From: a virus
Virus record (IMG/VR): IMGVR_UViG_3300046459_000427
Span: 40,854 to 104,853 of that record
Length of the DNA stretch: 64,000 nucleotides
Direction: 5' to 3' (one strand)
Of this stretch, positions 791 through 63,956 are shown piece by piece; the stretch's first letter is position 1; each line of letters begins with the position of its first letter. The notes below the pieces were generated by a model that did no database searches, was not told the origin of the DNA, and worked only from the letters and a program-made list of their open reading frames with translations. The position numbers and the translations under genes are program-made.

Positions 791-1177
791 TCAGATCTTG
801 AGAGAAGCGCGGAGTTGTGCCTCCTGCGCCTGCCGCTGCATCGCCTGGCCGACCGCCATCATCTGCTGCTGGGTACGCTGGGCCGTCTCCATGACGGTCA
901 GGTCCTTCTGCACCACGGCGACGGCGCCGAAGATGTCGTCCGGGGTGGCTCCTCGCCGGGGGACGAACTTCTGGGTCAGGTCGCTGGTGGCGACGACTGC
1001 GCCGTCCAGGCCGACGGCGACGAGGAACGCGGTGGTGACCGGGGTGCCGATCTCGTCCTCGGCGGGCGGGTTCTCCTCCGCCATCTTGGCCAGGGCTGCC
1101 CGCTGCTCGTCGGTGAGATCGGTATGAAGCGCGTCGTCGTTCTTCGTGGGGGTCTGGCCGAGGATCGGGATGCTCAT
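791..1177 (-). CDS. Hypothetical protein
   Basis: Start trimmed to MSIPILGQ (ATG 1177, GGAG upstream); GC3-biased codons. Confidence 0.7.
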   Translation of the reverse strand: MSIPILGQTPTKNDDALHTDLTDEQRAALAKMAEENPPAEDEIGTPVTTAFLVAVGLDGAVVATSDLTQKFVPRRGATPDDIFGAVAVVQKDLTVMETAQRTQQQMMAVGQAMQRQAQEAQLRASLKI

Positions 1178-1205
1178 GAGTGCTCCAGGTGTGTGTCGGG
1201 TGGGG

Positions 1206-1691
1206 TTACTTGTAGAGTCCGGCCTTTTCGCGGGCGCTCTGTACGACCAGCGAGTGGACCGGGCAGAACTCGCAGAGGTAGCGGTCCTGGGCGGACTTGT
1301 ACCTCGGCAGGCCTGCCGCCTTGCGCTCGGCTGCGGTGTCCGGCGTGAGGCGCTTGGAGCCGGTCTTGTAGTCCGAGCAGCCGGGGTTGCGTGCGTGGGC
1401 CTTCCAGCAGGCGTGTGCGTCTTCCTGGAAGGTGTTCTTCGCCTCGTAGAAGGAGGTGTCGAAGCCGGTGTGGCCGGTCTTGTCGCGGATCTGGGAGATG
1501 ATCGCGTCGCGGGTGCTGGGGCTGTCCCAGTGCTTCTTCTCCACACGCAGCATCGGGTGCGCGATGTGGTTGGGGTGCTTCTGTACGAGCGCTTCCAGGA
1601 GGAAGTCGGCGCGGGGGTCGCCCTCGTAGTCGGGCAGTTCCTCCATAGACCCGCAGGTCTTGCAGAGAAGAAGCCGTATGTGCTCGGCCAT
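1206..1691 (-). CDS. Hypothetical Zn-binding protein
   Basis: CKTC, C..H...C, CEFC motifs; AAGGGA RBS. Confidence 0.75.
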   Translation of the reverse strand: MAEHIRLLLCKTCGSMEELPDYEGDPRADFLLEALVQKHPNHIAHPMLRVEKKHWDSPSTRDAIISQIRDKTGHTGFDTSFYEAKNTFQEDAHACWKAHARNPGCSDYKTGSKRLTPDTAAERKAAGLPRYKSAQDRYLCEFCPVHSLVVQSAREKAGLYK

Positions 1692-1705
1692 GGTGTCCCT
1701 TCGAA

Positions 1706-2311
1706 TCAGTACCAGTTAGTGGCCTGGGAGTGTGCCCAGGCGGTGCAGGGTGTCCCGTATACCGCCTTGATGTATCCGAGTCCCCATCGTATCTGGGTTA
1801 TTGCATTTGTTTGCCAATCCGAACCGGCGGAAGCCATCTTCGAACCGGGCAATGCCTGCGGGATTCCGTAGGCGCCGGAGGAGGGGTTTGTGGCGGTGAC
1901 TCGCCAGTTCGACTCCTTCTCCCAGAGCAGTTCCAGGCAGGAGAACTGTGCGGGGCCGACCTGTGCGAGGGCGTAGGCCTTCGGGGAGGTCGTGGCGACG
2001 ACGGCGCGTGTCGGGGTTGGTGACGCCCGGGGGGTCTTTGTGGGTTTTGGCTGGTGGGTCGGGGTGCTGCTCGGCTTCGGCTTGACGGTCTTGGTGACCT
2101 TGGGCGTAGGCGCCGGGGTGGTTGGGGGCGCCAGCTTGGGGCGGGTCATGGACCGGTTGGCGGTGTCCGGAGCTGATCGGGTGACGGCGGGTGCGGCGGC
2201 GATGCCGTTGTAGTCGACGGGCTGGTCCTGGCCGGTGATGGAGATGGCCGAGACGGCAGAAGCCGTAACAAGGATGGCGGACGCTGCTGCTGCGGCTACG
2301 CGGTAGCGCAT
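1706..2311 (-). CDS. Secreted lytic transglycosylase (SLT/lysozyme-like) with Pro/Thr linker
   Basis: N-terminal signal peptide; C-terminal LWEKESNW...SSGAYGIPQALPGSKM...QIRWGLGYI...YG typical of actinobacterial transglycosylases. Confidence 0.85.
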   Translation of the reverse strand: MRYRVAAAAASAILVTASAVSAISITGQDQPVDYNGIAAAPAVTRSAPDTANRSMTRPKLAPPTTPAPTPKVTKTVKPKPSSTPTHQPKPTKTPRASPTPTRAVVATTSPKAYALAQVGPAQFSCLELLWEKESNWRVTATNPSSGAYGIPQALPGSKMASAGSDWQTNAITQIRWGLGYIKAVYGTPCTAWAHSQATNWY

Positions 2312-2404
2312 GCGGTTGCCTCACGTTCGGGGACGTTCTTGCTCCTAGAACGTAACATCCCCACTACGGCATTGGAAGCCGTAATGAGGATGACGTTATT
2401 CAGA

Positions 2405-3295
2405 TCACGCCTTGACGGTGAACAGGCCGCTGGCCGTGGCCAGCTTCGTCAGGGACTGAAGGCCCGGGGCGCCCTTGGCGTCGTTGCCCTGGTAGCCCTT
2501 CTTCCGGCGGAAGAGGTCGTAGGCGTCCTGCGTCTTGGTGCCCCAGGAGCCGTCCACCCACCTCGCGTCCAGGTAGCCCAGCGCCGACAGCGCCTTCTCG
2601 ACGAGCAGGACATCGGCCTTGTGGGTCGTGTGGCCCGTGGCCGCCGGGAGATCGGCCTTGCGGGCCGCCACGACGTTGGAGACGTCCACGACCGGCTTGG
2701 CCGCAGGCTTCGGAGCGGGCTTGGCCGCAGGCTTCGGAGCGGGCTTCGGGGCGGCCGGAGTGGCCGAGGTATGAAGCGAAGGGTTCTGCGACTTCCACGC
2801 CGGGTCGGCCGACTCGATACCGCCCGGGTATTCCGGGTAGCCGTAGCCGTAGACGTGCGCATCGGTCCGGATATGGGTCTTCGAATAGACCCCGTCGCCT
2901 TCGGCTGAACCATTCACGTTCGTATTGCCTTCGACGGAATACACGTGAGTCGCGTCGAATCCGATGACGACCCCGGTGTGCTCACCGCCGCCCGGACCGT
3001 AGAAGACCTGCGCACCGATGGCGGGGTACTCGGACCAGCGCTTGCGGGCCTTGTACCAGGAAACGCCGGTAGCGCACGAGGCGGTAACCGGGTAGGAGCC
3101 CTTCGGCAGGCCCGCCGTCTGGAAAGCCCACGCCGCGAATACGGCGCACCAGGCACCCTCGACGTTGTCGACCCATTCCAGGCCGGGGACCTTGTCGGCG
3201 TACTTCTCGTGGTTGTTCCAGTGGCCGTTGGAATAGCCCTCGTGGTACCCCACCTCGGCCTTTACGACCTTGCTGAGAGTGTCGGTCAAAGACAT
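2405..3295 (-). CDS. Endolysin: CHAP peptidase plus C-terminal peptidoglycan-binding domain
   Basis: WCAVFAAW...EHTGVV...VEGN CHAP motifs; PAPK linker; VDGSWGTKTQDAY PG-binding motif. Confidence 0.85.
   Translation of the reverse strand: MSLTDTLSKVVKAEVGYHEGYSNGHWNNHEKYADKVPGLEWVDNVEGAWCAVFAAWAFQTAGLPKGSYPVTASCATGVSWYKARKRWSEYPAIGAQVFYGPGGGEHTGVVIGFDATHVYSVEGNTNVNGSAEGDGVYSKTHIRTDAHVYGYGYPEYPGGIESADPAWKSQNPSLHTSATPAAPKPAPKPAAKPAPKPAAKPVVDVSNVVAARKADLPAATGHTTHKADVLLVEKALSALGYLDARWVDGSWGTKTQDAYDLFRRKKGYQGNDAKGAPGLQSLTKLATASGLFTVKA
2694..2746. repeat. 24-bp tandem repeat (about 2.2 copies) encoding the endolysin PAPKPAAK linker
   Basis: GGCTTGGCCGCAGGCTTCGGAGCG repeated at 2694 and 2718. Confidence 0.85.
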
Positions 3296-4001: not shown

Positions 4002-5257
4002 CAGAACAACTTCTGCTGGCCCGGGTGGACCTCGGTATGAAGCCCGTTCTTGCCGTAGGTGTTCAGCGAGGAGTCGTGGTTGTCACCACGGCGCCGCTTC
4101 TCCTCCGACCACTGCGCGGACTGCATGTTGGTCAGGGAGTTCAGTCCGCGCTCCTGCATGACGTTGCGGGCGACGTGGTCGTGGAAGGCGTGGATGCCCT
4201 TGATACCCATGTACGCCTGCTGGCTGCCGGAGCCCTTCTTGTCCTCCAGGTGCGGCGCGAAGGCACCACCACCGGAGTGCGTGTCCGACACCCAGAACTG
4301 TGAGGAGCCGTGCGGGTCCACCCACGAGTTGTGATAGGCGCCGACCTTCTCACCGGCCGTCGGCTTCCATGCGTTCGACAACTGCTTGCCGTTGAGGACC
4401 TGGTGCGTCACGTCGATCGCCAGGGCGTGGTTACGGGGGTACCCGTTGGCCGGGTAGGCGCGGGTGTCGCCTTCCTTCTTCACCAGTTGCGTGAACTGCT
4501 TGCCCGACTTCGAGGTGACGGTCTTCTCCACCTTGTCCTCGCGCGGGACGTAGTAGTCCTTGTGGTAGTGGTAGTCCTCGCCGGTCTTGCCGGATTTGGC
4601 CCACTGGATCGCGTGGCTGGCCGCCTGGTCGTTGGGGTAGACCGCCTTGCCCGTCTCCTTGTCCGGCCGCACGAACACGTTCTGCGGGGACGTGATGGCG
4701 TTCGCAGCGGCCTGAACGCCGAAGGGGACACCGTTCTCCTTGGCCGAGGTCTTCAGACGCGCACGCGGGCTCAGGGAACCGTCCCGGGTGTGGTCGTCGG
4801 CCGGGCTGTAGAACGAGTCGTGGTGCCCGCCCTCGTGCGCGTACGCACGGTCGACCTGAGAGGCCAGGGCGCGGTGAGCGGAGTCGGGGGTAACACCGAA
4901 CTTGGCGGCCGAGCGCAGCACGCGGGACTGCTCGGCAGGTGTGTGGTCCTCCCACCGACGGTTGACCGGCATCATGTCCCTGACCGGGTTCATGGTGTGC
5001 TGGCCGTGCCAGACATCAGACCCCTTCGGGCCCTCCAACTCCATCTGCCCGTGCAGGTTCGGAGCCTTGTCGGTGTTGCCCATCAGCCGGTACGACTGGC
5101 GGGGACTGGCTCCGGCTCCGGGCTTGTCCTGGATGGTCGTAAAGCGCTGCGGGTTGGCGGCCTCGTAGGACTGCCGCTTGGCCGAGGCGTCCTTGACGGT
5201 CTTGTTGTAGGCGCGGGTATCCGCAGCCTTCTGTGCTGGGGTCTTGCTCGCAGCCAT
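4001..5257 (-). CDS. Hypothetical phage protein (418 aa)
   Basis: GGAGG RBS, phage-like codon bias; C-terminal VSDTH...MQSAQW pattern; function unknown. Confidence 0.8.
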   Translation of the reverse strand: MAASKTPAQKAADTRAYNKTVKDASAKRQSYEAANPQRFTTIQDKPGAGASPRQSYRLMGNTDKAPNLHGQMELEGPKGSDVWHGQHTMNPVRDMMPVNRRWEDHTPAEQSRVLRSAAKFGVTPDSAHRALASQVDRAYAHEGGHHDSFYSPADDHTRDGSLSPRARLKTSAKENGVPFGVQAAANAITSPQNVFVRPDKETGKAVYPNDQAASHAIQWAKSGKTGEDYHYHKDYYVPREDKVEKTVTSKSGKQFTQLVKKEGDTRAYPANGYPRNHALAIDVTHQVLNGKQLSNAWKPTAGEKVGAYHNSWVDPHGSSQFWVSDTHSGGGAFAPHLEDKKGSGSQQAYMGIKGIHAFHDHVARNVMQERGLNSLTNMQSAQWSEEKRRRGDNHDSSLNTYGKNGLHTEVHPGQQKLF

Positions 5258-7352: not shown

Positions 7353-7957
7353 GCGAAGGCCAGGATCTCCCTGACCTTGGTATGAAGGTCTTCGAGGGTG
7401 CCGTCGTTGACCAGGCGGACGTCGAACCACTTGTCCGGGAGGGGCTTCTCCGACTTGTGGTCGTTGACGGCGCCGATGCCGGGCCGGTCGATCTTGATGA
7501 GCAGGCCGAGGCGGGAGTCGATGGCGTGGTGCTCGTTCTCGAACCGCAGGTCGGTGAAGACGTACTTCTTGTTCTCGTCGAGGTTCTTGAAGGCGGCCTT
7601 GACCCACACGTTCTGGTCGATCATCTCGCGGCCGACCTCGGTGCCCAGGACCTGGAGCATCCGGCGGATCTCCTCGTACTGGCGCTTGGCGTCATCCCAG
7701 CCGAGGTTGTCCACGAGGTCCTGGACGCGGAGGTGGTAGCCGTACTCGTCGGTGATGATGATCGGGTTGAGGACGTACAGGGCCTCGCGGAGGTTGTCGG
7801 CGAAGGCGACGGCGGTGTAGCCGTAGTCGGCGAGGATCTTGGCGACGGTGTCCTTGCCTGCGCTCGGGTAGCCGTGGAGGCCGACGAACTGCGGGAGCCA
7901 GGACTCGATGATGTCGTGGCCGTCGGTGGCGGTGGCGGTGGCGGTGGCGGTGGTCAC
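7349..7957 (-). CDS. Deoxynucleoside monophosphate kinase
   Basis: GLHGYPSAGKDTVA P-loop; FADNLRE; RMLQVLGTEVGR; TDLRFENE. Confidence 0.9.
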   Translation of the reverse strand: MTTATATATATDGHDIIESWLPQFVGLHGYPSAGKDTVAKILADYGYTAVAFADNLREALYVLNPIIITDEYGYHLRVQDLVDNLGWDDAKRQYEEIRRMLQVLGTEVGREMIDQNVWVKAAFKNLDENKKYVFTDLRFENEHHAIDSRLGLLIKIDRPGIGAVNDHKSEKPLPDKWFDVRLVNDGTLEDLHTKVREILAFA

Positions 7958-8875: not shown

Positions 8876-9552
8876 TTGGCGGACACCTTGCTCTTCGGCG
8901 CCTCGTCGTTCTTGATCGTGGCCTTGAAGAAGGCCCCGGCCGCGTCGTGCCAGACGACGACACCTTCGGGGTCCTGGAAGCCTGGGGCGATGAAGGAGCC
9001 GTCCGACTCCAAGGTATGAAGCGCGATGTTGACGGCGTAGTTCAGGTCGTTGCCGTTGGCGACCAGGATGACCGGGACGACGGTGACCTCCGGCGGGGCC
9101 GGTACGGCCTTGGGGAAGGTCGTCAGGTACTGGTCGGTGACCTCGGGGTCGCGGATGTCGTACCAGCGGTTGACGTTGAAGAGCGCGAATCGCTTCTCGT
9201 CGAGGCCGTAGCCGGACTGGATGCCCTTGCCGAACCACTCGCCGTAGTGGCGGCCGGGGCCGAGCGCGGTCAGCGCCACGGAGTTGTCGAAGACCCAGTT
9301 GGCGAAGCCGAAGTTGTCGTTGTTCCGGTCCAGCCAGCGGTTGCGGCTGCCTGCTCGGACGATGAAGGGTTCGTTGTCGCGGTAGGCGAGGACTCCCTGG
9401 GAGACGTCCTGGGTGTCGGCGTCGAAGTCCGCGAGCGGGGTGATCTCGATCAGGCCGTTCGTGCCGTCGACCTTCTCGGTAAGCACGACCTTGCGGTGCA
9501 GGCGGGGGATGGGGCGGAACTTCGGGTAATCGCTGGCCTTGAGGATGGTCAT
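8872..9552 (-). CDS. RNA ligase (Rnl2-like adenylation domain)
   Basis: TEKVDGTNG (motif I KxDG), YGEWFG, FALFNV, PEGVVV, FFK; start ATG 9552. Confidence 0.8.
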   Translation of the reverse strand: MTILKASDYPKFRPIPRLHRKVVLTEKVDGTNGLIEITPLADFDADTQDVSQGVLAYRDNEPFIVRAGSRNRWLDRNNDNFGFANWVFDNSVALTALGPGRHYGEWFGKGIQSGYGLDEKRFALFNVNRWYDIRDPEVTDQYLTTFPKAVPAPPEVTVVPVILVANGNDLNYAVNIALHTLESDGSFIAPGFQDPEGVVVWHDAAGAFFKATIKNDEAPKSKVSAK

Positions 9553-12221: not shown

Positions 12222-13405
12222 CAGGCGGCCTGGGTATGAAGCCCGTCGGCCTCTTCCGGCTTCGGCCGTCGGCTGACCTTCTTGGTGCCCGAGTTCTCGG
12301 CGGCCGTCAGGTCGTCCTCGGAGATGGAACGCTCATCCGCGTGCTGCGAGGCGGCGAGGACCTTTTCGTAGAGGAATTCCTGGAGGTCCAGGTCCTCTCG
12401 AATTGCGGCGAGGGTGTTCTCCTTGCTGTGCCAGCGAAGGACGGGCTTTCCCCTGTCGTCGTATTCGCCGTTGTCGACCTCGTAGTAAGCGCCCGCGCGC
12501 TTGATGACGTCGAAGAGGATCCCCATGATCATGATTTCCTTTGTGGTGTCGAAATCACCACGGGTGAAATTCAGATAGGGAGCGGAGCGGAAGTAGGCGT
12601 CGATCGTGGCGATCTGCTGCGGGGCCGCCGACTTGTTCTTGATGGTCTTCACCTTGATGACCTGGCCGACGTTCACCTTGCCCTTTCCGGGCCGAGGCTC
12701 CTGAATCCACTCGTCGCGTCGGACTTCCACCCTGGTGTAGAACGCATAATTCTTCGCGTTTCCGCCGGGGGTTGTGGTCGGCGTGCCGTGCGGGGAGAAC
12801 TTGCCGATGGCGTCGCGGTACTGGTTGATGACGATGCCGAGCAGCGGGCGGTCCTCGGGGTCGGTCATGCTGCGCTTCGTCGCGGCGCCGGACTTCCGGA
12901 AGAACTTGCCGGTGAGACGGGCGCCCAGCGCCATGGTCGCCTCGTCCATGTCCTTCTCGGACTCCTCGTCCGGTATGAGCGCCGGGTAGGAGTCGAGGAC
13001 GATCATGTCGACCGAGCGGGACGTCGCGAAGTCGAGCATGGTCTGGTAGGCGAATTCCATGGCCTGGGTGGGGACGACGATCACGCGGTCGTTGTCGACG
13101 CCCAGCGCTTCGGCCTGGTCGGTGTCGTAGTGCTCTGCGGCGATCCACAGGCACGTGAAGTCGGGGTCCTTCTTCTGGTTGGCGGCCAGCGTCTTGTAGA
13201 CGATGAAGGTCTTGCCGTGGGACTCACGGCCGATGACCTCGACCCACTGGTTGCCCGGCCAGCCACCGCCGAGGGCGATGTCCAGGGAGAGGGAGCCGGA
13301 GGTGAAGCGCTTGGCCACGCGCATGTCCGAGGCGAAACACACGGCACCCGGATGGGTCTTGTTGATCTTGGCGAGAAGTGCGAGGGCGTCCTTGTTCACG
13401 CTCAA
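12221..13405 (-). CDS. recA: RecA/UvsX-like recombinase
   Basis: SGSLSLDIALGGGWP, EVIGRESHGKT Walker A, IVLDS, INQYRDAIG, TPGGNAKNY, IKNK; start likely TTG 13405 or GTG 13399. Confidence 0.93.
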   Translation of the reverse strand: MSVNKDALALLAKINKTHPGAVCFASDMRVAKRFTSGSLSLDIALGGGWPGNQWVEVIGRESHGKTFIVYKTLAANQKKDPDFTCLWIAAEHYDTDQAEALGVDNDRVIVVPTQAMEFAYQTMLDFATSRSVDMIVLDSYPALIPDEESEKDMDEATMALGARLTGKFFRKSGAATKRSMTDPEDRPLLGIVINQYRDAIGKFSPHGTPTTTPGGNAKNYAFYTRVEVRRDEWIQEPRPGKGKVNVGQVIKVKTIKNKSAAPQQIATIDAYFRSAPYLNFTRGDFDTTKEIMIMGILFDVIKRAGAYYEVDNGEYDDRGKPVLRWHSKENTLAAIREDLDLQEFLYEKVLAASQHADERSISEDDLTAAENSGTKKVSRRPKPEEADGLHTQAA

Positions 13406-13434
13406 CAGGGGCCCCCGTAGGTATGAAGTCGCAT
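13402..13434 (-). CDS. Putative leader mini-ORF MRLHTYGGPC coupled to recA
   Basis: AGGAG RBS upstream of ATG 13434; TGA stop overlaps recA TTG (TTGA); contains the CTTCATACC motif. Confidence 0.5.
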   Translation of the reverse strand: MRLHTYGGPC

Positions 13435-13564: not shown

Positions 13565-15526
13565 TCAGGCAGTCACGAGGTCGACGTCCTCGCAGCCACC
13601 GGCCGCCGAGCAAGCCAGCGCCTGGGAGCCCACGGTCTGGTCGTAGGTCTCGTAAAAGGCCAGGTCCGACCACTCGACGCGGTGCTCCTGGGTGATCAGA
13701 GCCTCGTACTCGGCCTCCGTGATCTCCTCGTACGGCGCCTGCACGTAGGTGTGATCGCTGTACGGAAGGAAGGAGACTCCCGAGATCTCGCCCAGGTGCT
13801 CCCAGACCCACTCGCCGACCTCGTCCCACTCGTGCTCGCGCACGCTGATGGTCACCGACGGCTTGTGCTCGCACCAGAAGCGCTGATAGGCGAGCCAGAT
13901 CTTCAGGTGCTCGATCGCGGAGACGTCTTCACGCACCAGCGCGGTGTTGCTGGCACGCTGGGCGAAGGTGAACACCCACGCCGAGGAGTTGTAGGCGTCC
14001 TCCTCGTGCGGAATCCCCCCGTCGATCATCACGAACGAGATGGGGTCCTTCTTGTCCACCCGCACGCGCCGCTTGTAGAAGCGGGCGTGCTTGGTATGAA
14101 GCCCGCTCTCGCAGTCGACCAACTGGGAGACGGTCCCGGAGGGCTTCACGCAGGTGATCGCGTCCGAGGACGGGATGCCGATGCGCCGGGCCTCCTTCTC
14201 GTTGGCGATGCGGGCCGTCAGGCGAAGGTCGGTCAGCGTGAGGGACGTGAGGCCGTCACCCTTGCTGCCGTCGGTGTTCTGGTTGCCGAAGACCCCGGTG
14301 AGGGAGACGCCCAGCAGCCGCTCCTCCTCCGCGTTCTTGCGCCACTCCTCACGCAGGTACGGGTAGTCCGTCAGCGTGCTCTGCCAGGTGCCCAGGGTGG
14401 CCGCCAGGCTCACCTTGCGCTCCAGGTCCTCGACGGTGTCCTCCGGCCGCACGACGACCTCGGACAGGTTGCAGAACGAGAACGGCCGAAGAATGATCTC
14501 CGAGCACGGGTTGGTCCCGTAGTCGGTGTCGGCCGAGCGGTGCCCGTACTTCGCAGCCTGACGCTGGGCCGCACCACGGTGGAAGATGCCACGCTCACCC
14601 GAGCCGCTGGCTACCAGGGAGCCCCACTCGGCGCGGAAGTCCTCGTGACGCATGCCGTCGTAGTAGACGGCCGAGTTGTTGGCCAGCGCACGGTAGCCGT
14701 GATCCTTCCACCACTCCCCAGCCTTCGCCTGCGCCATCTCCTGGTCGTCCAGATCGGACAGGGAGATCATCGCGGACCGCCGGACACCACCGACCACGAC
14801 GACGCTGGCTATCTTGCAGGCGATGTCGTGGACCTCGATCGGCCGGAACTTCCGACCGGCGGCCTGGTGGAACTTCTCCACGGTGAACGCGAACAGTTCG
14901 TCCAGCGGACCCGGGCCGGAGGCACGCCCACCGAAGGTACGAAGGCGGGCACCGGCAGGCCGGATCCCGGACAGGTCCCACTGGTGTACCTCGCCCTGCC
15001 ACAGGCCTTCCAGCAGGGCCCGGAACGCATAGCCCCAGCCCTCCTTGGAGTCCTCGACGACGATCACGTCGGCAGACGCCCGAAGGGTGTCCGGGACGGC
15101 AGGCAACTGGTCGGTGTACTGGCGCTCGACCGAGTAGCCGACGCCCGTGCCGTTCATGAGGATGTAGAGGAGTTCGTCCAGGGCGCGCGGGTCCTGGAGC
15201 GGCAGGTACGAACAGTTGAAGCCCGCGATGTTCGAGCGGTCCAGGGCGGCACCGGCCGTCATCACCGCGCGCATCGACGGCATGACCTCGTGGTTGAGGA
15301 CCGCCTGGCGGACGGCCGCGACGACCCCCTGCTCGGGGATGTAGTCGTGCTTGTCCTTCAACTGGCCGAGCATGAAGTCGACGTAGCGGTCGACGGTCTC
15401 GGTCCAGGTCTCGCGGCGGTTGCGCTCCTCGTCCCAGCGGGCGTACCGGGACTTGGCGATGAAGGAGCGGTAGGGGTCGGCGATGTCGCCGGTCGGAGTG
15501 AGCAGGGAGGTCACCAGGAGGTCCAT
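13565..15526 (-). CDS. nrdJ: Class II (adenosylcobalamin-dependent) ribonucleotide reductase
   Basis: MPSMR, FNCSY, GTGVG, VVVGGVRRSA, TNPCSEI, CNLSE, TCVKPSGTVSQL, C-terminal CSAAGGC. Confidence 0.93.
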   Translation of the reverse strand: MDLLVTSLLTPTGDIADPYRSFIAKSRYARWDEERNRRETWTETVDRYVDFMLGQLKDKHDYIPEQGVVAAVRQAVLNHEVMPSMRAVMTAGAALDRSNIAGFNCSYLPLQDPRALDELLYILMNGTGVGYSVERQYTDQLPAVPDTLRASADVIVVEDSKEGWGYAFRALLEGLWQGEVHQWDLSGIRPAGARLRTFGGRASGPGPLDELFAFTVEKFHQAAGRKFRPIEVHDIACKIASVVVVGGVRRSAMISLSDLDDQEMAQAKAGEWWKDHGYRALANNSAVYYDGMRHEDFRAEWGSLVASGSGERGIFHRGAAQRQAAKYGHRSADTDYGTNPCSEIILRPFSFCNLSEVVVRPEDTVEDLERKVSLAATLGTWQSTLTDYPYLREEWRKNAEEERLLGVSLTGVFGNQNTDGSKGDGLTSLTLTDLRLTARIANEKEARRIGIPSSDAITCVKPSGTVSQLVDCESGLHTKHARFYKRRVRVDKKDPISFVMIDGGIPHEEDAYNSSAWVFTFAQRASNTALVREDVSAIEHLKIWLAYQRFWCEHKPSVTISVREHEWDEVGEWVWEHLGEISGVSFLPYSDHTYVQAPYEEITEAEYEALITQEHRVEWSDLAFYETYDQTVGSQALACSAAGGCEDVDLVTA

Positions 15527-16456: not shown

Positions 16457-18435
16457 TACTTTGCCTCCGACCAGCGGTCCACGATCTTCACGTCGGAAGA
16501 CAGCGGAACCTTGAGCAGTTTCTGAATGTCGTCGCCGAGCATGGCTTCCTTCACCAGAGCGGCGGCTTCCTCGGCGCGGTCCTCCGGAGCGAGCACCACG
16601 AGTTCGTCGTGCACGGAGAGGATCAGCCGGATCTCGTCCGGCAGGATGTTGTTCAGCCGGATCATCGCCAACTTGATCAGGTCGGCAGCCGAGCCCTGGA
16701 TGAGGCTGTTGACTGCCTGGCGCTCGGCACCCATGCGCAGGCCGTTGTTCTGCGACAGGATGAGCGGCAGGCGCCGCTTGCGGCCGAGCAGCGTGCGGAT
16801 GTACGGGGGTCGGCGCGACCGGCAGACCCGGACGACTTCTTCCTTGAAGCGGTAGATCTCGGGGAACAACTTCTGGTGCATCTCCATGAAGCGCTTGGCT
16901 TCCTTGACGGAGATCTTCGCCATCGATGCGACCTTGTCCGGGCCTGCACCGTAGACGACTGCGAAGTTGATTCCCTTGGCGACCTGGCGGAAGTCGATGC
17001 ACTCCCGGTCGCCCGCCTTTACCCGCCGGATGAATTCCTGCGGGTCCACTCCCATAAGAGCGGCAGCGGTGGCCGAGTGAGGGTCGACGCCGTTGTGGAA
17101 GCCCTTGTACAGATCGCCTCGGCCGATGAAGTGCGCGAGCACGACCAGTTCGATCTGTCCGTAGTCCGCGACGACCAGTTTGTATCCGGCCGGTGCCACG
17201 AACAGTCCACGGATTCGCTTGCCGAGTTCCGTGTCCGGGCGCGGGATGTTCTGGAGGTTGGGTTCCCGGCAGGAGAATCGTCCGGTCACCGTTCCGTACT
17301 GGACGAAGTCGGCGTGGATCCGGCCGCCGAATATCCGGCAGGGCTTCTTCGGGTCATCTTCGACCCCGAGGTAGGACACCGGGTAGTCGATCAGCTTGCT
17401 GACTTCGGAGTACTCCAGCAGCTTCTTGACGACGGCGTTGTTCTCGTGCTTTTCCAGGCTGGCGGCGTCGGTGGAGTAGTCCTTCCACTCCAGCTCCTGC
17501 CCGGCCTCGCGCTTCTTCTTGCCGCCGTCGGTCGGCTTGGTGGGGCGCAGGCCCTGGCCGCCGTCCTTCTTGGGTGCGTACAGCACCTCGGCCTTCTGGG
17601 CCGGGGCGTTGAGATTGAACTGCTTGCCCGCAGCGCGGTAGATGTCCGCCTCGATGTCCACCAGGCGCTCGGACATGTCGCGGACCAGCTCGCGCATGGC
17701 CTGCTCGTCGACCGGTGCCCCGGTGATGCCCATGTCGAGCAGTACGCCGAGGACGTCCTCTTCCAGTCGCCGGACGTTGATCAGGTGCTGGTCGTCGATC
17801 CGCTTCTGGAACTTCTTCCAGAGCAGGTAGGTGTACTTCGCGTCCATGTAGGCGTAGTGGCCCACCTTGGAGAAGGGGTGTGCCTCGACGCACTTGCCGA
17901 CGTTCTCAGTGTCGTAGTCGACCTTGTAGTAGCGCTTGACGAGTTCCTTGAGGCCCTTCTGTTTCATGTTCTCGTCGAGGAGCCACTGAAGGACGATGGT
18001 GTCCGAGTACTTCGGGGGTGCGATCTCGCCCCAGTACTTCGCCGTGGAGATGAGGTCGAAGGTCGCGTTGTGCGCGATCTTGATCTTGTCCTCGGCGAAG
18101 AACAGCGGCTTGAGGATGGAGAACACCTCGGAGGGGAGCATCTGCTCCGGCGGGGCGTCGTAGACGGCCGGGATGTTGTCGAACTTCCCGGTGATCTTGT
18201 TCTTCTTCTTCGTGGCCTTGCTCAGCAGGACGTCGCCGTTGGGGTGGCCGAACGGAATGGCGTAGGCCTCACCGTCGGTGGCCAGGCTCATCCAGTTGGC
18301 GACGTTCTGTGTCGGGACTCCTCGGTTGGCGCCGAAGGTCTCGATGTCGAAAGCGAAGGCCGGGCGCTCCATGAAGCGCTCGACCAAAGTATGAAGTCGG
18401 TCGGGGGTGAGGATGACGCTGTTCCGGATGGTCAC
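16456..18435 (-). CDS. polA: Family A DNA polymerase (3'-5' exonuclease + polymerase)
   Basis: FDIET, AHNATFD, YAYMDA exonuclease motifs; TGRFS, NLQNIP, ADYGQIEL, RQVAKGINFAVVYG, VHDEL. Confidence 0.95.
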   Translation of the reverse strand: MTIRNSVILTPDRLHTLVERFMERPAFAFDIETFGANRGVPTQNVANWMSLATDGEAYAIPFGHPNGDVLLSKATKKKNKITGKFDNIPAVYDAPPEQMLPSEVFSILKPLFFAEDKIKIAHNATFDLISTAKYWGEIAPPKYSDTIVLQWLLDENMKQKGLKELVKRYYKVDYDTENVGKCVEAHPFSKVGHYAYMDAKYTYLLWKKFQKRIDDQHLINVRRLEEDVLGVLLDMGITGAPVDEQAMRELVRDMSERLVDIEADIYRAAGKQFNLNAPAQKAEVLYAPKKDGGQGLRPTKPTDGGKKKREAGQELEWKDYSTDAASLEKHENNAVVKKLLEYSEVSKLIDYPVSYLGVEDDPKKPCRIFGGRIHADFVQYGTVTGRFSCREPNLQNIPRPDTELGKRIRGLFVAPAGYKLVVADYGQIELVVLAHFIGRGDLYKGFHNGVDPHSATAAALMGVDPQEFIRRVKAGDRECIDFRQVAKGINFAVVYGAGPDKVASMAKISVKEAKRFMEMHQKLFPEIYRFKEEVVRVCRSRRPPYIRTLLGRKRRLPLILSQNNGLRMGAERQAVNSLIQGSAADLIKLAMIRLNNILPDEIRLILSVHDELVVLAPEDRAEEAAALVKEAMLGDDIQKLLKVPLSSDVKIVDRWSEAK

Positions 18436-45700: not shown

Positions 45701-46535
45701 TGATGAAGAGGGGGACCTCCTTTCCGCACGTATCGTGCGTGAACTTGACATCATTGTACTGAGGGCCCGGCTGCTTTTCCTCAATGGCATCGAGGATGCG
45801 CTTTCGGTCCACGATGCCCAGGGAACGCGCGAAGTCCGGGTTTCCACTGACGGCGTTTTCGCTACCATCGGCCTCGACCACGGAAATGAGGCAGCGGGAA
45901 ATCAGGAGCGTGTTCTGCTCGGATTCCGTGGTGCGCTCGACGATGGCGAGGATTGCGTCCTGGTCGGCGCCGATGGGAAGTCGGGCGTATGCCTTGCGGC
46001 CCTTTCGGAGTTCGACTTCGAAGACGCGGTCGGACGGGTTTGCCAGTCGGCGGACGGGGATCTCGTCGAGGGTGACGGACAGGCGGAACTCATCACCGCA
46101 GTGCGGGCAGGAGTAGCGGTCCCAGACGATCTCCTCGCCGTAGGTCGCGCGCCGGATCTCCAGCAGCAGCGTGTCGCGGTCGCCGAGCAGGAGGTTGCTG
46201 AGCAGCGCGGGGCTGGACTTCTGGTCGCCCACGGAGACGGTGCCGCTGTCGAGCAGGGTGGAGATGAACTTGCCGATGCCGCCGTTGCGGGCCTTGGTGA
46301 TGGCCTCTTCATCGGCGCCGGTCAGTTCCCGGACCTCGGCGTCGTAGCGGGCATTGGTGAAGTCGTTGTCCGAAACGAAACCGCCCGGCAGGCGGAACTG
46401 GCCACCTGCCGGGACGGCTATCTCGGGCTTGGCGACCTCGGCCCCCTGGGAAAGCAATGCCGCGATGGCAGCATTTGCCTGACCAGGGTTGGAGAGAGGG
46501 CTGGAGAACCCCTCGGTATGAAGGTCGTTTGCCAC
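45672..46535 (-). CDS. Tail assembly chaperone / T4 gp26-like hub assembly protein
   Basis: EVRELTGADEE, LLLGDRDTLLLEIRRATYG, CPHC; between tube and TMP. Confidence 0.75.
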   Translation of the reverse strand: MANDLHTEGFSSPLSNPGQANAAIAALLSQGAEVAKPEIAVPAGGQFRLPGGFVSDNDFTNARYDAEVRELTGADEEAITKARNGGIGKFISTLLDSGTVSVGDQKSSPALLSNLLLGDRDTLLLEIRRATYGEEIVWDRYSCPHCGDEFRLSVTLDEIPVRRLANPSDRVFEVELRKGRKAYARLPIGADQDAILAIVERTTESEQNTLLISRCLISVVEADGSENAVSGNPDFARSLGIVDRKRILDAIEEKQPGPQYNDVKFTHDTCGKEVPLFISAGDLFQGL

Positions 46536-49973: not shown

Positions 49974-50789
49974 TCAGTACCCCCAGGATCCGAAGACGCT
50001 GGAGGGGATCCCGGACTCGTCGTCGTTCTGGTGGCCGGGTCCGATGGGCGGCAGGATCCGCTGCGGCAGGGTGTGCTCGTCGTACTCACGCTCACGGAAC
50101 AGCGGCACGAGACGGCCGGTCGTACGAGAGACGCGACGCAGGTTGGTGACCTCGATCGAGTACAGGCCGACGCCCAACTTCTCGCAGAGGGTCTTGTACC
50201 GCTCGGTGAGCATGCCGATCTGTGTCTGGATCTGGGCGAAGCGCTGGCCCCGGTCGACAGAGGTGCCGTCCGAGGTCTGGACGTTGATGTCGGTGGCCGC
50301 ATCGGTGGACAGCGCCCACATGGCCTCGGTGCACGCGAGGAGAACCACGAGGGCGTCCTCCTCGGCCGGGAGGTTGTCGACGCTCACAGGCACCTGGTCG
50401 TACTGGAGGAAGCCGTTGGCGTCCTTGTAGCGGGTGGAGACGGTACGGCCCCGGGTGTGCTGGGCCACAGCGTCGTCCAGGTAGATGTCCAGCTCGTCGT
50501 CGGAGAACAGCCCGTACGAGGATCCCGACACCAGCAGCAGTGCGTCGAGCGCGAGAGGCTGGGTCAGGTCGAGGATGCCGCTCAGGTCGTCGATGACGTA
50601 GTCGGTGGGGGTGCTCAGCGTGGTCTGCTGGCCCCCCGAGATATGAAGTACTTCGAGGCCGGTCACGTTGTTCGCGCTCAGTTCGTACTGTGCGACGTCC
50701 CCTGTGCCACGGATGGTGTCGCGGAACGGCTGGAGCCGGTCGCCCAGCTCGCTGCGTACCCGCGTGCGCAGTTCTTGGAGAGTTGCCAT
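49974..50789 (-). CDS. Head-to-tail adaptor-like protein
   Basis: LRTRVRSELGD...FSDDELDIYL; synteny. Confidence 0.65.
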   Translation of the reverse strand: MATLQELRTRVRSELGDRLQPFRDTIRGTGDVAQYELSANNVTGLEVLHISGGQQTTLSTPTDYVIDDLSGILDLTQPLALDALLLVSGSSYGLFSDDELDIYLDDAVAQHTRGRTVSTRYKDANGFLQYDQVPVSVDNLPAEEDALVVLLACTEAMWALSTDAATDINVQTSDGTSVDRGQRFAQIQTQIGMLTERYKTLCEKLGVGLYSIEVTNLRRVSRTTGRLVPLFREREYDEHTLPQRILPPIGPGHQNDDESGIPSSVFGSWGY

Positions 50790-53109: not shown

Positions 53110-53976
53110 TTACGAGTACAGTCCACGCTGGTTCTGGGCTGCCTGACCGACGCCCAACTGGCCCCGAATCTTGGCGTACTCCGACATCGGCATGTTCTGA
53201 AGGTCAGAAAGGGAGTACGACTTGTGCCCCGGATCAGTGTCCATAGGTCCGGTGGTGGAATAGCCGGTGGGGCTCACACCACGCATGGAGGCTCGCTGCT
53301 GAATAGCGGCCTGCTGGACCGACTCCAGGATAGCCTGGGTCTTCGCCTTGACTGTATTGAGCGAGTTCTCGACTTCCTCCGGCGTATTACCGCCGACGAA
53401 ATCGAGGAGTTCCGGAGCGATATTCTCGCTCTCCTCGCCGACACGTCGCTGGATGTACGTCTGGAGGTTGTTGAACTCCTGCTCCTTCTGGAACAGAAGA
53501 CGCTCCTGCTCGCGCTCCGTCTCGAACTGCTGGAGACGGGAGTTCCACTCCTGCTCCTTGACCGCGAGGAGTTCCTTGGCCGACAGGTCTTCCTCGGCCT
53601 TGGCCTTGGCGACCTCCTGGGCCTGGCGCTGACGCTCGGCCTCCTGAGCCTGCGCGGCCTCACGGGCCTTGCGCTGCTCTTCGATCTCGGCGAGGAACGT
53701 CTTGTTCTGCTCCTCCACGTTCTGGAGGCGCTTGTACAACTTGTCCTTCTCCTCCTGCCGCGCCTTCTGGATGTCCTCGGCAGTGAAGCGAGGCTCGGCG
53801 GGCGGGGTCGCAGGCGGCTCGACGACAGCGGCCGGGACGACGATGACGGGGTCGCCACCCTCACCGGGCTGCGGAGCACCACCTGCGATGGAGTAGATCG
53901 GGCGGCCGTCCTTGCGGTGGCCGAGGATCTCGTGGTTACGGGCCTGCTCGGAGAGGCCGGAAGTATGAAGCGTCAT
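53110..53976 (-). CDS. Capsid scaffolding protein
   Basis: Coiled-coil Glu/Gln-rich; C-terminal MPMSEYAKIR; between portal and MCP. Confidence 0.8.
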   Translation of the reverse strand: MTLHTSGLSEQARNHEILGHRKDGRPIYSIAGGAPQPGEGGDPVIVVPAAVVEPPATPPAEPRFTAEDIQKARQEEKDKLYKRLQNVEEQNKTFLAEIEEQRKAREAAQAQEAERQRQAQEVAKAKAEEDLSAKELLAVKEQEWNSRLQQFETEREQERLLFQKEQEFNNLQTYIQRRVGEESENIAPELLDFVGGNTPEEVENSLNTVKAKTQAILESVQQAAIQQRASMRGVSPTGYSTTGPMDTDPGHKSYSLSDLQNMPMSEYAKIRGQLGVGQAAQNQRGLYS

Positions 53977-60945: not shown

Positions 60946-61110
60946 ATGGACAACGCAGAGATCATCGACATCACGTCGCTTCATACCGACTCCCATGCGG
61001 AGCGCCCCAAGTCGACCCTGACCATCACCCGTCGCTCCTGGAGCACCGAGGACCGTCGGCGCCTCGCCACCCTCCTCTTCGGCCCCCGCCCGGGGGAGGA
61101 TGCCGCCTAG
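60946..61110 (+). CDS. Small protein upstream of serine recombinase (54 aa; RDF candidate)
   Basis: Own translation MDNAEIIDITSLHTDSHAERPKSTLTITRRSWSTEDRRRLATLLFGPRPGEDAA; promoter upstream; carries the motif in sense orientation. Confidence 0.6.
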   Translation: MDNAEIIDITSLHTDSHAERPKSTLTITRRSWSTEDRRRLATLLFGPRPGEDAA

Positions 61111-61160
61111 AGAAACAAGCTGCACAAACAACTTGACATCCGATAGTCTCCAGGGCAGTA

Positions 61161-61199: not shown

Positions 61200-61223
61200 C
61201 AGTACAGTCTCGGGAGACTGACC

Positions 61224-63254: not shown

Positions 63255-63268
63255 CCTGCGGAAACACC

Positions 63269-63308
63269 GAAGGCCCCTCTCCCGACACCAGGGACTGAGG
63301 GGCCTTTC
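63269..63308. terminator. Hairpin between convergent genes
   Basis: GAAGGCCCCTC...GAGGGGCCTTTC. Confidence 0.65.
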
Positions 63309-63569
63309 TCATGCCTCGCGCTTGCTCAGGACGTCCAGGACCCCGAGGAGGCTCTGTGCCCCCTGGTGGGCCTCCAGCAGGCTCTCGGGGGTCGACTGCT
63401 TGCGGTAGTCGTCCAGGGCCTTGGCGAGGCCGCTACCGACCGCGTCGGCCCAGTTGAGCACGTCGACCGTGGGGAGCCTGTCCAGCCGCTTGGCGGCCTT
63501 CGCGCGGACCGGGTCGATCTTCTCCTCGCCGCCACGGAGAAGTGCCCTCACATCAGTCCAAGAGCGCAT
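63309..63569 (-). CDS. Hypothetical protein
   Basis: 86 aa, GAGGAG RBS. Confidence 0.7.
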   Translation of the reverse strand: MRSWTDVRALLRGGEEKIDPVRAKAAKRLDRLPTVDVLNWADAVGSGLAKALDDYRKQSTPESLLEAHQGAQSLLGVLDVLSKREA

Positions 63570-63650
63570 AGTGCGTCGTACTCCTCGTCCATGTCGTCGG
63601 TCTTCTGGGCCACCATCCGGCGGGCCGCTGCCTTCTCTTCGTCGGTGTTC

Positions 63651-63956
63651 TCAGATGGCGAGTTCATCGAGTTCCTCCGCGTCGAAGCGGTGGGCGTGGT
63701 CGCGGATGTCGTCGGTCGAGAGGGCATTGCCATATCCCTGGAGGGCGGTGTAGAGAGCGTCGTTCTCATTCCGGTAGGTATTGCGCCATCGACCGAAGAC
63801 GATTCCCTTTCCGGCCCACACCTTGAGGATGAGGGACTTCGAGCGCCGGTATGGCGGTTCGATTTCGTCGGTCGGCGCGGTATGAAGAAGCGGCGTATGG
63901 GGGCGCAGGTTCACCGCGTGAACGAAGAAGGGCCCCACCCCATGTGTATTCGGCAT
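63651..63956 (-). CDS. Hypothetical protein
   Basis: 101 aa; carries the genome-wide motif in LHT frame. Confidence 0.65.
   Translation of the reverse strand: MPNTHGVGPFFVHAVNLRPHTPLLHTAPTDEIEPPYRRSKSLILKVWAGKGIVFGRWRNTYRNENDALYTALQGYGNALSTDDIRDHAHRFDAEELDELAI

What the first reader, a model, noticed from the sequence alone, without database searches (positions are those of the whole stretch)
1121..63887. The 9-mer is frame-locked: always read as Leu(CTT)-His(CAT)-Thr/Ile
Seen: all 25 copies fall in the same reading frame (ALHT, SLHT, GLHT, DLHT, RLHT, PLHT, ELHT, RLHI, ALHI, VLHI, TLHT, LLHT); two of these rely on mini-ORFs I defined myself. They use T-ending CTT and CAT codons, whereas other Leu-His pairs checked (e.g. 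DLHP, ELHA, VLHA in the SNF2 helicase) use CTG CAC. A pure DNA operator should occur in all three frames, and GC3 pressure would favour the xxC TTC ATA frame. Inference: the signal may act on translated mRNA, as a ribosome pause, a rare-codon-pair switch or a ribosome-dependent cleavage site (a DUF4258/RelE-fold-like gene at 20596..20949 itself carries a copy). Alternatively the antisense GGT-ATG-AAG is a start for in-register antisense ORFs. This is not a feature I know from classical stoperators.
Basis: partly seen in the sequence, partly recalled or inferred. Interest (0 to 1): 0.85.

Follow-up and report, generated by a model that had tools for sequence, protein, structure and literature searches.

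The report
Frame-locked three-codon word in phage genes
A temperate Streptomyces phage writes one exact nine-letter word about 40 times through its genes, always in the gene's direction and always read as the same three rare codons, even inside tiny leader reading frames, which points to an undescribed gene-control signal that is read during protein synthesis.

Summary
The window has 25 copies of CTTCATA(C/T)(C/T), against 0.16 expected by chance. All lie in the sense direction and all are read CTT-CAT-AYC. The whole 105-kb genome has 39 copies, and an independent gene caller puts 34 of 34 genic copies in that frame.

Codon rarity does not explain the lock. Outside the word, CAT (38), ATA (31) and TCA (38) are equally rare.

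- **Relatives:** they keep the rule, 0 full-word copies in other frames among about 240 genic copies.
- **Variant lineage:** one lineage carries CTTAATACC at the same sites, with position 4 changed at 17 of 17 orthologous sites.
- **Non-genic copies:** of 35, 30 have a start codon within 9 codons upstream in this frame. The other two frames give 2 and 0. About 15 of these mini-ORFs end on the next gene's start.
- **Antisense-ATG idea:** refuted, because the variant reads ATT.
- **DUF4258-like gene:** it does not track the variant.
- **Genes that do track it:** two small genes outside the window, a HicA-like RNA-binding or nuclease protein and a 64-aa protein.

Best reading (about 0.5): an mRNA signal that works only when translated in frame, recognised by a phage factor.

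The scan found the same signal before on other DNA, in related phages (e1-5993069, e1-5998516). No experiment exists.

The parts
1121..1129 (-). motif copy CTTCATACC, read A-L-H-T, codon 17 of 128 of gene 791-1177
2768..2776 (-). motif copy, S-L-H-T, codon 174 of 296 of gene 2405-3295
4034..4042 (-). motif copy, G-L-H-T, codon 406 of 418 of gene 4001-5257 (C-terminal)
7379..7387 (-). motif copy, D-L-H-T, codon 191 of 202 of the dNMP-kinase-like gene 7349-7957; 35 nt before the overlapping start of the next gene
9013..9021 (-). motif copy, A-L-H-T, codon 178 of 226 of the RNA-ligase-like gene 8872-9552
12233..12241 (-). motif copy, G-L-H-T, codon 387 of 392 of recA 12221-13399
13420..13428 (-). 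motif copy, R-L-H-T, codons 3-5 of the leader mini-ORF before recA
13402..13434 (-). Leader mini-ORF MRLHTYGGPC* with an AGGAG SD. Its stop lies 3 nt before the recA start. It is conserved in at least 16 distinct relatives. In CTTAATACC-type relatives the same leader is fused in frame to recA.
14093..14101 (-). motif copy, G-L-H-T, codon 476 of 653 of the ribonucleotide reductase gene 13565-15526
18388..18396 (-). motif copy CTTCATACT, R-L-H-T, codon 14 of 659 of the DNA polymerase A gene 16456-18435
19170..19178 (-). motif copy, S-L-H-T, codon 50 of 269 of gene 18516-19325
19912..19920 (-). motif copy, G-L-H-T, codon 35 of 153 of the MerR-like gene 19561-20022
20794..20802 (-). motif copy, P-L-H-T, codon 50 of 117 of the weakly DUF4258-like gene 20596-20949
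23336..23344 (-). motif copy, R-L-H-T, codon 8 of 65 of small ORF 23168-23365
23718..23726 (-). motif copy, G-L-H-T, codon 203 of 318 of the primase gene 23376-24332
25563..25571 (-). motif copy CTTCATACT, E-L-H-T, codon 85 of 421 of the DnaB-like helicase gene 24558-25823
26296..26304 (-). motif copy CTTCATATC, R-L-H-I, codon 70 of 81 of small ORF 26266-26511; 38 nt before the overlapping start of the next gene
28314..28322 (-). motif copy CTTCATACT, S-L-H-T, codons 5-7 of the leader mini-ORF before the HTH_36 (replication-initiator-like) gene
28287..28334 (-). Leader mini-ORF MGISLHTYRLLGAAE*. Its TGA overlaps the GTG start (GTGA) of gene 27283-28290. The same arrangement occurs in G004, G007, G008, G001 and G009, with different peptide sequences.
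28694..28702 (-). motif copy CTTCATATC, A-L-H-I, codon 327 of 409 of gene 28451-29680
30273..30281 (-). motif copy CTTCATATC, R-L-H-I, codon 103 of 165 of gene 30090-30587
39772..39780 (-). motif copy, G-L-H-T, codon 171 of 1193 of the tail protein gene 36709-40290
46515..46523 (-). motif copy, D-L-H-T, codon 5 of 287 of the baseplate-like gene 45672-46535
50640..50648 (-). motif copy CTTCATATC, V-L-H-I, codon 48 of 271 of gene 49974-50789
53962..53970 (-). motif copy CTTCATACT, T-L-H-T, codon 3 of 288 of gene 53110-53976 (next to the portal gene)
60979..60987 (+). The only plus-strand copy, S-L-H-T, codon 12 of the plus-strand small ORF 60946-61110 between the two integrase genes. It is sense and in frame there too. 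The equivalent copy in relatives has the relative's own variant.
63879..63887 (-). motif copy, L-L-H-T, in an in-frame ORF that extends upstream of called gene 63651-63821

Best explanation
The word (G)CUU-CAU-AYC is a cis-acting signal in phage mRNA that works only when a ribosome reads it in this frame. A phage-encoded factor specific to each lineage recognises it. The best candidate for that factor is an orphan HicA-like 81-aa RNA-binding or nuclease protein at genome 2014-2259, outside the window. A 64-aa protein at genome 7296-7490 may act with it.

Recognition probably stalls the ribosome or cuts the message. That would switch off the gene carrying the word, and any downstream gene whose translation is coupled to it. 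Genes that cannot tolerate the three residues get a short leader ORF that carries the word and ends on their start codon.

Because CTT and CAT are rare, host messages almost never contain the word. It therefore tags phage messages only. The likely use is genome-wide post-transcriptional silencing, as immunity in lysogens or as timed shut-off, with heteroimmune lineages differing by one codon (CAU or AAU).

Shown: strand lock, frame lock, nucleotide-level purifying selection, the concerted one-letter switch, the leader ORFs with coupling, and the two type-linked genes.

For: 1. Enrichment and strand. The window holds 21 CTTCATAYC against 0.16 expected. The genome holds 39 copies of the core, every one sense to its local gene.

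2. Frame. Genic copies in frames 1/2/3 are G000 34/0/0, G007 41/0/0, G008 35/0/0, G004 27/0/2 and G003 8/0/0. For the variant they are G009 36/0/0, G005 28/0/0 and G001 31/0/0. The two G004 exceptions are CTTCATAGG and CTTCATACG, not the full word.

3. Not codon rarity. Genome codon counts are CTT 163, CAT 74 (half of them inside the word), ATA 31, TCA 38.

4. Copies free of protein constraint. Among 35 non-genic copies in 7 genomes, 30 have a start within 9 codons upstream in frame 1. Frames 2 and 3 give 2 and 0. About 15 of the mini-ORF stops fall within 4 nt of the next gene's start. The recA leader is conserved in at least 16 distinct relatives while its second codon varies.

5. Selection on nucleotides. 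At orthologous sites the word is 98-99% identical while flanking third codon positions are 70-79% identical.

6. A trans factor must exist. Against the sister lineage, position 4 differs at 17 of 17 orthologous sites and the other 8 positions are 96% identical. Each genome carries only its own variant.

7. Independent gains. There are about 100 orthologous site groups. Forty-nine occur only in CAT-type genomes, and all follow the rule.

8. Candidate reader. In a screen of 87 genes for residues fixed between types, g7296-7490 (13.1%) and g2014-2259 (11.9%) stand out against a median of 1.2% and a next-best value of 6.4%. The g2014 allele matches the motif type in 24 loci, although the flanking gene is about 92% identical in both types. 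Evidence that g2014 is HicA-like:
- 14 of 16 homologues hit Pfam HicA_toxin, best E 5.9e-6.
- Sources name homologues YcfA/HicA-like.
- The AF2 model is alpha-beta-beta-beta-alpha.
- Solved HicA toxins are among the top structural matches, Z 4.7-5.2.
- Complete relatives that lack the gene also lack the word: G002 and G011-G014.

9. Precedent. Translation- and reading-frame-dependent cleavage inside short ORFs is known for Rae1 (PMC10351889, PMC12407103).
Against: - There is no RNA or protein experiment of any kind, and no RNA run was listed.
- The HicA family was defined as translation-independent mRNA interferases (Jorgensen 2009, as cited in PMC10865869). A ribosome-dependent HicA would be new.
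- Known A-site nucleases read 2-3 nt, not 9-10.
- G000's own HicA-like protein scores below the Pfam cut-off (15.5 bits against 27). No HicB partner was found.
- Type linkage rests on few independent lineages, because the AAT-type genomes look like one clade.
- One fragment, G015, has a HicA-like gene but no word in 36 kb.
- In the AAT-type the other frames are excluded by TAA and TTA, so only CAT-type genomes test the frame rule.
- About half of the copies lie deep inside genes, where a role in gating initiation or coupling is not obvious.
Confidence: 0.5

Rival explanations
1. The word is an RNA site recognised without the ribosome. The HicA-like protein, or another factor, binds or cuts single-stranded CUUCAUAYC in phage messages, as classical HicA or MazF-type nucleases do. 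On this view the frame lock and leader ORFs are side effects: coding constraints, a need for translation to keep the site unfolded, and lineage sorting because only frame-1 sites survive a switch to the AAU variant.
For: - The copies are sense-only, and an RNA-acting fold is type-linked.
- HicA is known as translation-independent (cited in PMC10865869).
- The word is predicted to be less paired than AT-rich control 9-mers: 0.56 against 0.51 in G000 and 0.71 against 0.52 in G009.
- The variant forbids frames 2 and 3, through a TAA stop and through TTA, which this genome uses 0 times.
Against: - In mini-ORFs no protein function constrains the frame, yet 30 of 35 copies are in frame 1 against 2 and 0.
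- Forty-nine site groups are confined to CAT-type genomes, where TCA and ATA are no rarer than non-motif CAT, and all are in frame 1.
- The CAT type looks ancestral. The outgroup G003 and the deep-branching G004 both carry it.
Confidence: 0.2
2. The word is a stoperator-like DNA operator. An immunity repressor binds the asymmetric DNA word throughout the genome and blocks transcription, as in Cluster A mycobacteriophages. The frame lock would come from coding constraints alone.
For: - There are 30-45 asymmetric sites per genome, all in one orientation relative to transcription.
- The word changes in concert between lineages, like heteroimmune stoperator sets (PMC3029335, PMC6550527).
- The phage is temperate. 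It has two integrases, and relatives occur as proviruses in Streptomyces.
Against: - Stoperators are 13 bp and lie mainly in intergenic DNA (PMC3029335). Here about 85% of copies are inside genes and the rest are in translated mini-ORFs.
- A DNA site needs neither a frame nor a leader ORF with an SD and a coupled stop.
- No HTH protein is type-linked. The XRE-type gene at genome 4912-5772 is not.
- An earlier first-reader note (e1-5984194), which I could not reproduce with the exact pattern, describes a separate dyad operator at promoters.
Confidence: 0.15
3. There is no trans factor. Two consecutive G:U-wobble codons (CUU-CAU) simply slow host ribosomes, giving programmed pauses for folding or for coupling.
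For: The word is in frame and made of rare codons. The phage carries its own tRNA-Asn(GUU), and some CAT-type genomes also carry an odd tRNA with a GUG anticodon.
Against: - A pause signal would not require one exact 9-10-nt word with G at -1 and AYC after it.
- It would not switch CAU to AAU at 17 of 17 sites in one lineage while excluding the other variant completely.
- CTT and CAT elsewhere are not paired.
Confidence: 0.04
4. The antisense strand GGT-ATG-AAG provides start codons for in-register antisense ORFs.
For: The in-register antisense frame of high-GC genes is usually open, and the ATG lies in that frame.
Against: The sister lineage has GGTATTAAG, with no ATG, at 17 of 17 orthologous sites and at all of its 30-40 copies. 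No promoter or SD is conserved on that strand.
Confidence: 0.01

Closest known systems
Stoperators of Cluster A mycobacteriophages (L5 gp71 / Bxb1 gp69 repressor sites; PMC3029335, PMC6550527, PMC9283540)
   Same: There are tens of copies of one asymmetric word spread over a temperate actinophage genome. All have one orientation relative to transcription. The consensus is lineage-specific and changes in concert, as expected for co-evolution with a phage-encoded reader.
   Different: Stoperators are 13-bp DNA sites, lie mainly in intergenic DNA, and are bound by an HTH repressor. No reading-frame rule is described for them. Here the word is 9-10 nt. About 85% of copies are inside genes, every copy is in one frame, and the non-genic copies sit in translated leader ORFs. 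The type-linked genes are a HicA-like protein and a 64-aa protein of unknown fold, not an HTH repressor.
Rae1 (YacP) targets in Bacillus subtilis: S1025 and bmrX short ORFs (PMC10351889, PMC12407103)
   Same: The action on mRNA depends on translation and on the reading frame. It takes place inside short, otherwise functionless ORFs that control expression of downstream genes.
   Different: Rae1 is a host NYN-domain nuclease with a handful of targets. Its frame dependence is now ascribed to ribosome stalling by the peptide. No NYN_YacP domain is encoded by this phage. Here one exact nucleotide word, including synonymous positions, recurs about 40 times, and a phage lineage can change it.
Ribosome-dependent mRNA interferases of the RelE/YoeB/HigB/YafQ type
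   Same: They read mRNA codons in frame at the ribosomal A site, which would give a strict frame rule.
   Different: Their specificity is 2-3 nt and their targets are not enriched in any genome. No ParE/RelE Pfam match exists in this phage. The weakly DUF4258-like gene is not linked to the motif variant.
HicA toxins of HicAB modules (Pfam PF07927; structures 1WHZ, 4P78, 5YRZ, 6G26)
   Same: The candidate reader g2014-2259 shares the alpha-beta-beta-beta-alpha fold, a GxxH segment with an invariant His, and the C-terminal G-L. Fourteen of 16 homologues hit the family HMM.
   Different: It is an orphan with no HicB and is phage-borne. It carries the word in its own last codons. HicA is described as translation-independent with loose sequence specificity.

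Membership tests
Cluster A-type stoperator system | Many (20-40) copies of one asymmetric site spread over the genome | tested here: met
   39 copies in 104.7 kb, with 0.4 expected per strand for the 9-mer
Cluster A-type stoperator system | [quoted passage not shown] | tested here: met
   All 39 copies are sense to the local gene, including the single plus-strand copy in a plus-strand ORF
Cluster A-type stoperator system | Sites lie primarily in intergenic DNA (PMC3029335) | tested here: not met
   34 of 40 core copies lie inside called genes. The rest lie in SD-led mini-ORFs or in-frame N-terminal extensions
Cluster A-type stoperator system | 13-bp site bound by an HTH immunity repressor whose sequence co-varies with the site | tested here: inconclusive
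   The conserved core is 9-10 nt. No HTH protein is among the type-linked genes. Binding cannot be tested here.
Ribosome-dependent (A-site) mRNA interferase target | Recognition depends on the reading frame | tested here: met
   This is statistical evidence only. There are 0 full-word copies in frames 2 or 3 among about 240 genic copies in 8 genomes. The mini-ORF control gives 30/35 against 2/35 and 0/35.
Ribosome-dependent (A-site) mRNA interferase target | A RelE/ParE-fold nuclease is encoded with it | tested here: inconclusive
   PF05016 finds nothing. DUF4258 scores 15.5 bits, below its cut-off of 25, at window 20596-20949, and the atlas gives a lead of 0.87. The gene is not type-linked.
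Ribosome-dependent (A-site) mRNA interferase target | mRNA is cleaved at the codon during translation | not testable with these tools
   No RNA sequencing run was listed
Rae1-type frame-dependent cleavage | NYN (YacP) nuclease | tested here: not met
   PF05991 finds nothing in the phage genome. The host genome was not examined.
HicA toxin family (for the candidate reader, genome 2014-2259) | Match to the family HMM PF07927 | tested here: inconclusive
   The phage's own protein gives E 0.019 and 15.5 bits against a cut-off of 27. Fourteen of 16 homologues hit, best E 5.9e-6. One homologue carries a precomputed PF07927 assignment, and JGI names others YcfA/HicA-like.
HicA toxin family (for the candidate reader, genome 2014-2259) | dsRBD-like alpha-beta-beta-beta-alpha fold | tested here: met
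   The AF2 model has pLDDT 78 with elements H20-31, E35-39, E43-47, E53-58, H64-75. VIA-align 2 gives 5YRZ_D Z 5.2 (rmsd 2.5, 55 aligned), 4P78_D Z 4.9, 1WHZ Z 4.8 and 6G26_E Z 4.7. The top Foldseek hit is 1WHZ, probability 0.89. The Z values are modest, as is usual for a 60-residue domain.
HicA toxin family (for the candidate reader, genome 2014-2259) | Paired HicB antitoxin gene | tested here: not met
   PF15919 finds nothing in the genome. The neighbouring genes are a membrane protein and unknowns.

The most novel reading that the evidence does not exclude
A phage-wide 'translated barcode'. A small HicA-like nuclease reads three specific codons on the translating ribosome and thereby silences every operon of its own phage type. 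Heteroimmune lineages differ by one codon (CAU or AAU). Leader mini-ORFs evolved solely to place genes under this control. This would be an immunity or regulatory system acting at the level of translation rather than of DNA.
Probability: 0.3. Interest if true: 0.95.

Novelty: new variant of a known kind. Interest (0 to 1): 0.8.

Why it matters
Genome-wide recognition words in temperate phages are so far known as DNA operators. Here the same logic appears to be tied to the reading frame: tens of oriented copies that co-evolve with a phage factor.

That would mean a phage can mark and control all of its messages through a three-codon word that host messages lack. It would give the widespread but poorly understood orphan HicA-like proteins of phages a concrete job. 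It would explain a class of tiny coupled leader ORFs in actinophage genomes. It would also offer a portable, orthogonal, frame-dependent switch for Streptomyces engineering.

The prediction can be tested directly with frame-shifted reporters and RNA-end mapping in a culturable host, because a related provirus sits in Streptomyces sp. NPDC002088.

Tried and rejected
**Explanations considered and rejected**
- Codon usage or GC3 as the cause of the lock. ATA 31, TCA 38 and non-motif CAT 38 are equally rare.
- Inheritance of the lock from the variant that forbids other frames. The CAT type is found in the outgroup G003 and in deep-branching G004, and 49 site groups are CAT-only.
- +1 slippage at CUU-C, as in prfB or Ty1. 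The variant CUU-A does not allow re-pairing, and the sites lie at all positions in genes.
- -1 frameshifting on GGGCCCC in the recA leader. The heptamer is not conserved among relatives.
- Antisense starts.
It is present in only 2 of 4 CAT-type genomes.
- An RNA hairpin around the word. No structure signal was found beyond mildly higher accessibility.
- A possible analogous word GGCAGTGG in fragment G015. It is an SD-plus-GTG start context and is not frame-locked.

**Searches that found nothing useful**
- INPHARED has no near-DNA relative. The closest cultured phages are BRock-like, at about 60% portal identity.
- No paper mentions the word other than as primers.
- There are no tRNAs in the window.
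- No RNA holder was listed among sequencing runs.
- A profile search of PDB sequences with the HicA-like alignment gave no significant hit.
- The 64-aa protein has no clear fold match.
- A single-protein search with the variant HicA-like allele found only itself.
- The phage has no HicB, NYN_YacP or ParE/RelE Pfam match.

- The look-up of encoding contigs
- Complex prediction


Full report
**What the window is.** The window is bases 40854-104853 of a 104,853-bp IMG/VR virus record.
- The 127-bp terminal repeat equals a common assembler k-mer, so the ends are probably arbitrary.
- GC is 64.8% and nearly all genes lie on the minus strand.
- Genes identified include terminase, portal, capsid, tail, DNA polymerase A, primase, DnaB, RecA, ribonucleotide reductase, a tyrosine integrase and a serine integrase.
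- The closest cultured phages are Streptomyces phage BRock and its relatives, at about 60% portal identity.
- Related proviruses occur in Streptomyces genomes.
- It is therefore a temperate Streptomyces phage from a large uncultured family. The portal search found 477 relatives.

**Checking the observation.**
- CTTCATAYC occurs 21 times in the window against 0.16 expected.
- The conserved core is G-CTTCATA-[C/T]-C, with weaker T and A after it.
- GC by codon phase and a self-trained gene caller that penalises CTT and CAT both put every genic copy in the sense strand with C at codon position 1.
- In the whole genome, 34 genic copies are in frame 1 and none in frames 2 or 3.
- Leu-His followed by Thr or Ile is CTTCAT in 33 of 36 cases. 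Leu-His followed by anything else is CTG/CTC-CAC in 35 of 42 cases.
- L-H-[T/I] is about six times more frequent than composition predicts, so most copies were made by changing amino acids, not only by synonymous changes.

**Is the lock a by-product of codon usage?** No. Frame 2 would need TCA and frame 3 would need ATA. The genome uses TCA 38 times and ATA 31 times. It uses CAT 38 times outside the word. Half of all CAT codons in the genome are inside the word.

**Relatives.**
- Close relatives fall into two types. One has the same word: G004, G006, G007 and G008, and also the more distant G003. The other has CTTAATAYC: G001, G005, G009 and G010.
- Each genome holds 25-48 copies of its own type and essentially none of the other.
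- All genic copies are in frame 1 in every genome. The exceptions are two 7-mer matches in G004 that are not the full word, and one antisense CTTCATACG in G008.
- At orthologous sites the word is 98-99% identical while flanking third codon positions are 70-79% identical.
- Between the two types, position 4 differs at 17 of 17 orthologous sites, so His becomes Asn in 17 unrelated proteins. Selection therefore acts on nucleotides, and a type-specific reader must exist.
- Lineage-specific copies often face CTGCACACC or CTGAACACC in the other genomes, which are native L-H-T or L-N-T with normal codons.
- The sites cluster into about 100 orthologous groups: 29 shared by both types, 49 in CAT-type genomes only and 22 in AAT-type genomes only. 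The frame rule has thus been obeyed in many independent gains.

In the AAT type the other frames read CT-TAA-TAC-C (a stop) or C-TTA-ATA-CC. TTA is never used in this genome. The lock is forced in that lineage. Only CAT-type genomes, including this window, test the rule. They look ancestral, because the outgroup G003 and deep-branching G004 carry the CAT type.

**The copies outside genes are the cleanest test.**
- In seven genomes, 35 copies lie outside called genes.
- In frame 1, 30 of them have ATG, GTG or TTG within 9 codons upstream with no stop between. In frames 2 and 3 the numbers are 2 and 0. The other five lie in longer uncalled ORFs, also in frame.
- These mini-ORFs are 6-28 codons long and usually have an SD. 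About 15 end within 4 nt of the next gene's start, as ATGA, GTGA, TTGA or TGATG overlaps.
- The window has two. MRLHTYGGPC* lies before recA (13402-13434). MGISLHTYRLLGAAE* overlaps the start of the HTH_36 initiator-like gene (28287-28334).
- The recA leader is present in at least 16 distinct relatives with a varying second codon. In AAT-type phages it is fused in frame to recA. Distant relatives without the word start recA directly.
- Three of the six C-terminal genic copies in this genome also lie 28-38 nt before an overlapping downstream start.
- Genic copies are 2.5-3 times enriched in the first 20 and the last 15 codons.

Neither a DNA site nor a ribosome-independent RNA site needs such leader ORFs in one frame.

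- I compared every G000 protein with three CAT-type and three AAT-type genomes. By identity and by the share of residues fixed between types, two small genes outside the window stand out among 87. These are g7296-7490 (64 aa, 13.1% fixed) and g2014-2259 (81 aa, 11.9%). The median is 1.2% and the next-best value is 6.4%.
- Their flanking genes are as similar to AAT-type as to CAT-type genomes.
- In 24 loci the g2014 allele matches the motif type.
- The g2014 protein is HicA-like. Fourteen of 16 homologues hit PF07927. The model is alpha-beta-beta-beta-alpha. Solved HicA toxins are among the best structural matches. It has an invariant His in a GGNH segment and ends in G-L followed by the word itself.
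- No HicB is present.
- Five complete relatives without the gene also lack the word. One 36-kb fragment, G015, has the gene but no word.
- A Streptomyces provirus has a long-insert allele together with the CAT word, so the insertion is not the determinant.
- The 64-aa protein has no recognisable fold.

**Mechanism.**
- I commit to a translated mRNA signal read in frame by a phage factor, with stalling or cleavage that blocks the gene and any coupled downstream gene. My confidence is about 0.5.
- Frame-dependent cleavage in short ORFs has a precedent in Rae1 (PMC10351889, PMC12407103), but the phage encodes no NYN or RelE domain.
- HicA is described as translation-independent (cited in PMC10865869), which counts against the simplest version of this mechanism.
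- The rivals are a ribosome-independent RNA site (0.2), a stoperator-like DNA operator (0.15; PMC3029335, PMC6550527), factor-free pausing (0.04) and antisense starts (refuted).
- What the system is for is inference. It could be immunity in lysogens or timed shut-off.

**Independence.** Earlier follow-ups of this scan on related genomes (e1-5993069, e1-5998516) reached a similar reading. I saw them only after my own analysis, and they are not independent evidence.

Noticed in passing
outside the window: genome 9573-9658 (minus strand), next to tRNA-Asn(GTT): ARAGORN calls an 86-nt tRNA with a GTG (His) anticodon. It has a long variable arm and a D-arm like the neighbouring tRNA-Leu(CAA), and discriminator C73. 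It is present in G000 and G007 but not in G004, G008 or the AAT-type genomes. Which amino acid it accepts is unclear.
   Followed up: partly
outside the window: genome 13038-17384; window 8872-9552: The phage carries a full RNA-repair set: a PNKP-type kinase-phosphatase, a T4 Rnl1-type RNA ligase, RlaP, and a second RNA ligase inside the window. It also carries 4-5 tRNAs. This suggests an arms race with host tRNA or mRNA nucleases, or resealing of RNA cut by the phage itself.
   Followed up: partly
outside the window: genome 4912-5962 (plus strand): An XRE-HTH + DUF5753 gene is followed by a DUF397 gene, a WhiJ/AbaA-like pair typical of Streptomyces chromosomes. It is not linked to the motif type.
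   Followed up: partly
window 60700-61230: Between the tyrosine and serine integrase genes lies a divergent control region with a TAGTAT -10-like box about 12 nt before the ATG of a poorly conserved 48-54-aa plus-strand ORF. The ORF is nearly leaderless. In every relative it carries that relative's own motif variant at about codon 10-13.
   Followed up: partly
outside the window: genome 18681-18790: The mini-ORF MKTIRLHT* starts on the upstream gene's stop (ATGA). It ends right after the word and is followed by a partial inverted copy of the word (CATACCTAG cc CTAGGTATG) and a strong GC hairpin. The AAT-type relatives have VRRLNT* or VVRLNT* at the same place.
   Followed up: partly
window 13402-13434 and relatives: In some CAT-type genomes the recA leader contains the canonical -1 slippery heptamer G-GGC-CCC in frame, and the -1 frame runs into recA. 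The heptamer is not conserved in other relatives, so I read it as chance.
   Followed up: yes
relatives G002 and G003 (loci L098-L107): More distant relatives carry 25-26 tRNA genes and a predicted tmRNA, whereas this lineage keeps only Pro, Phe, Leu(CAA), Asn and sometimes His.
   Followed up: no
genome-wide, e.g. TTGTCAAGC (7 copies on one strand): A second over-represented word resembles a -35 box with flanking symmetry. An earlier first-reader note describes a dyad at promoters. The exact pattern TGTCAA-N18-TTGACA occurs only twice.
   Followed up: partly
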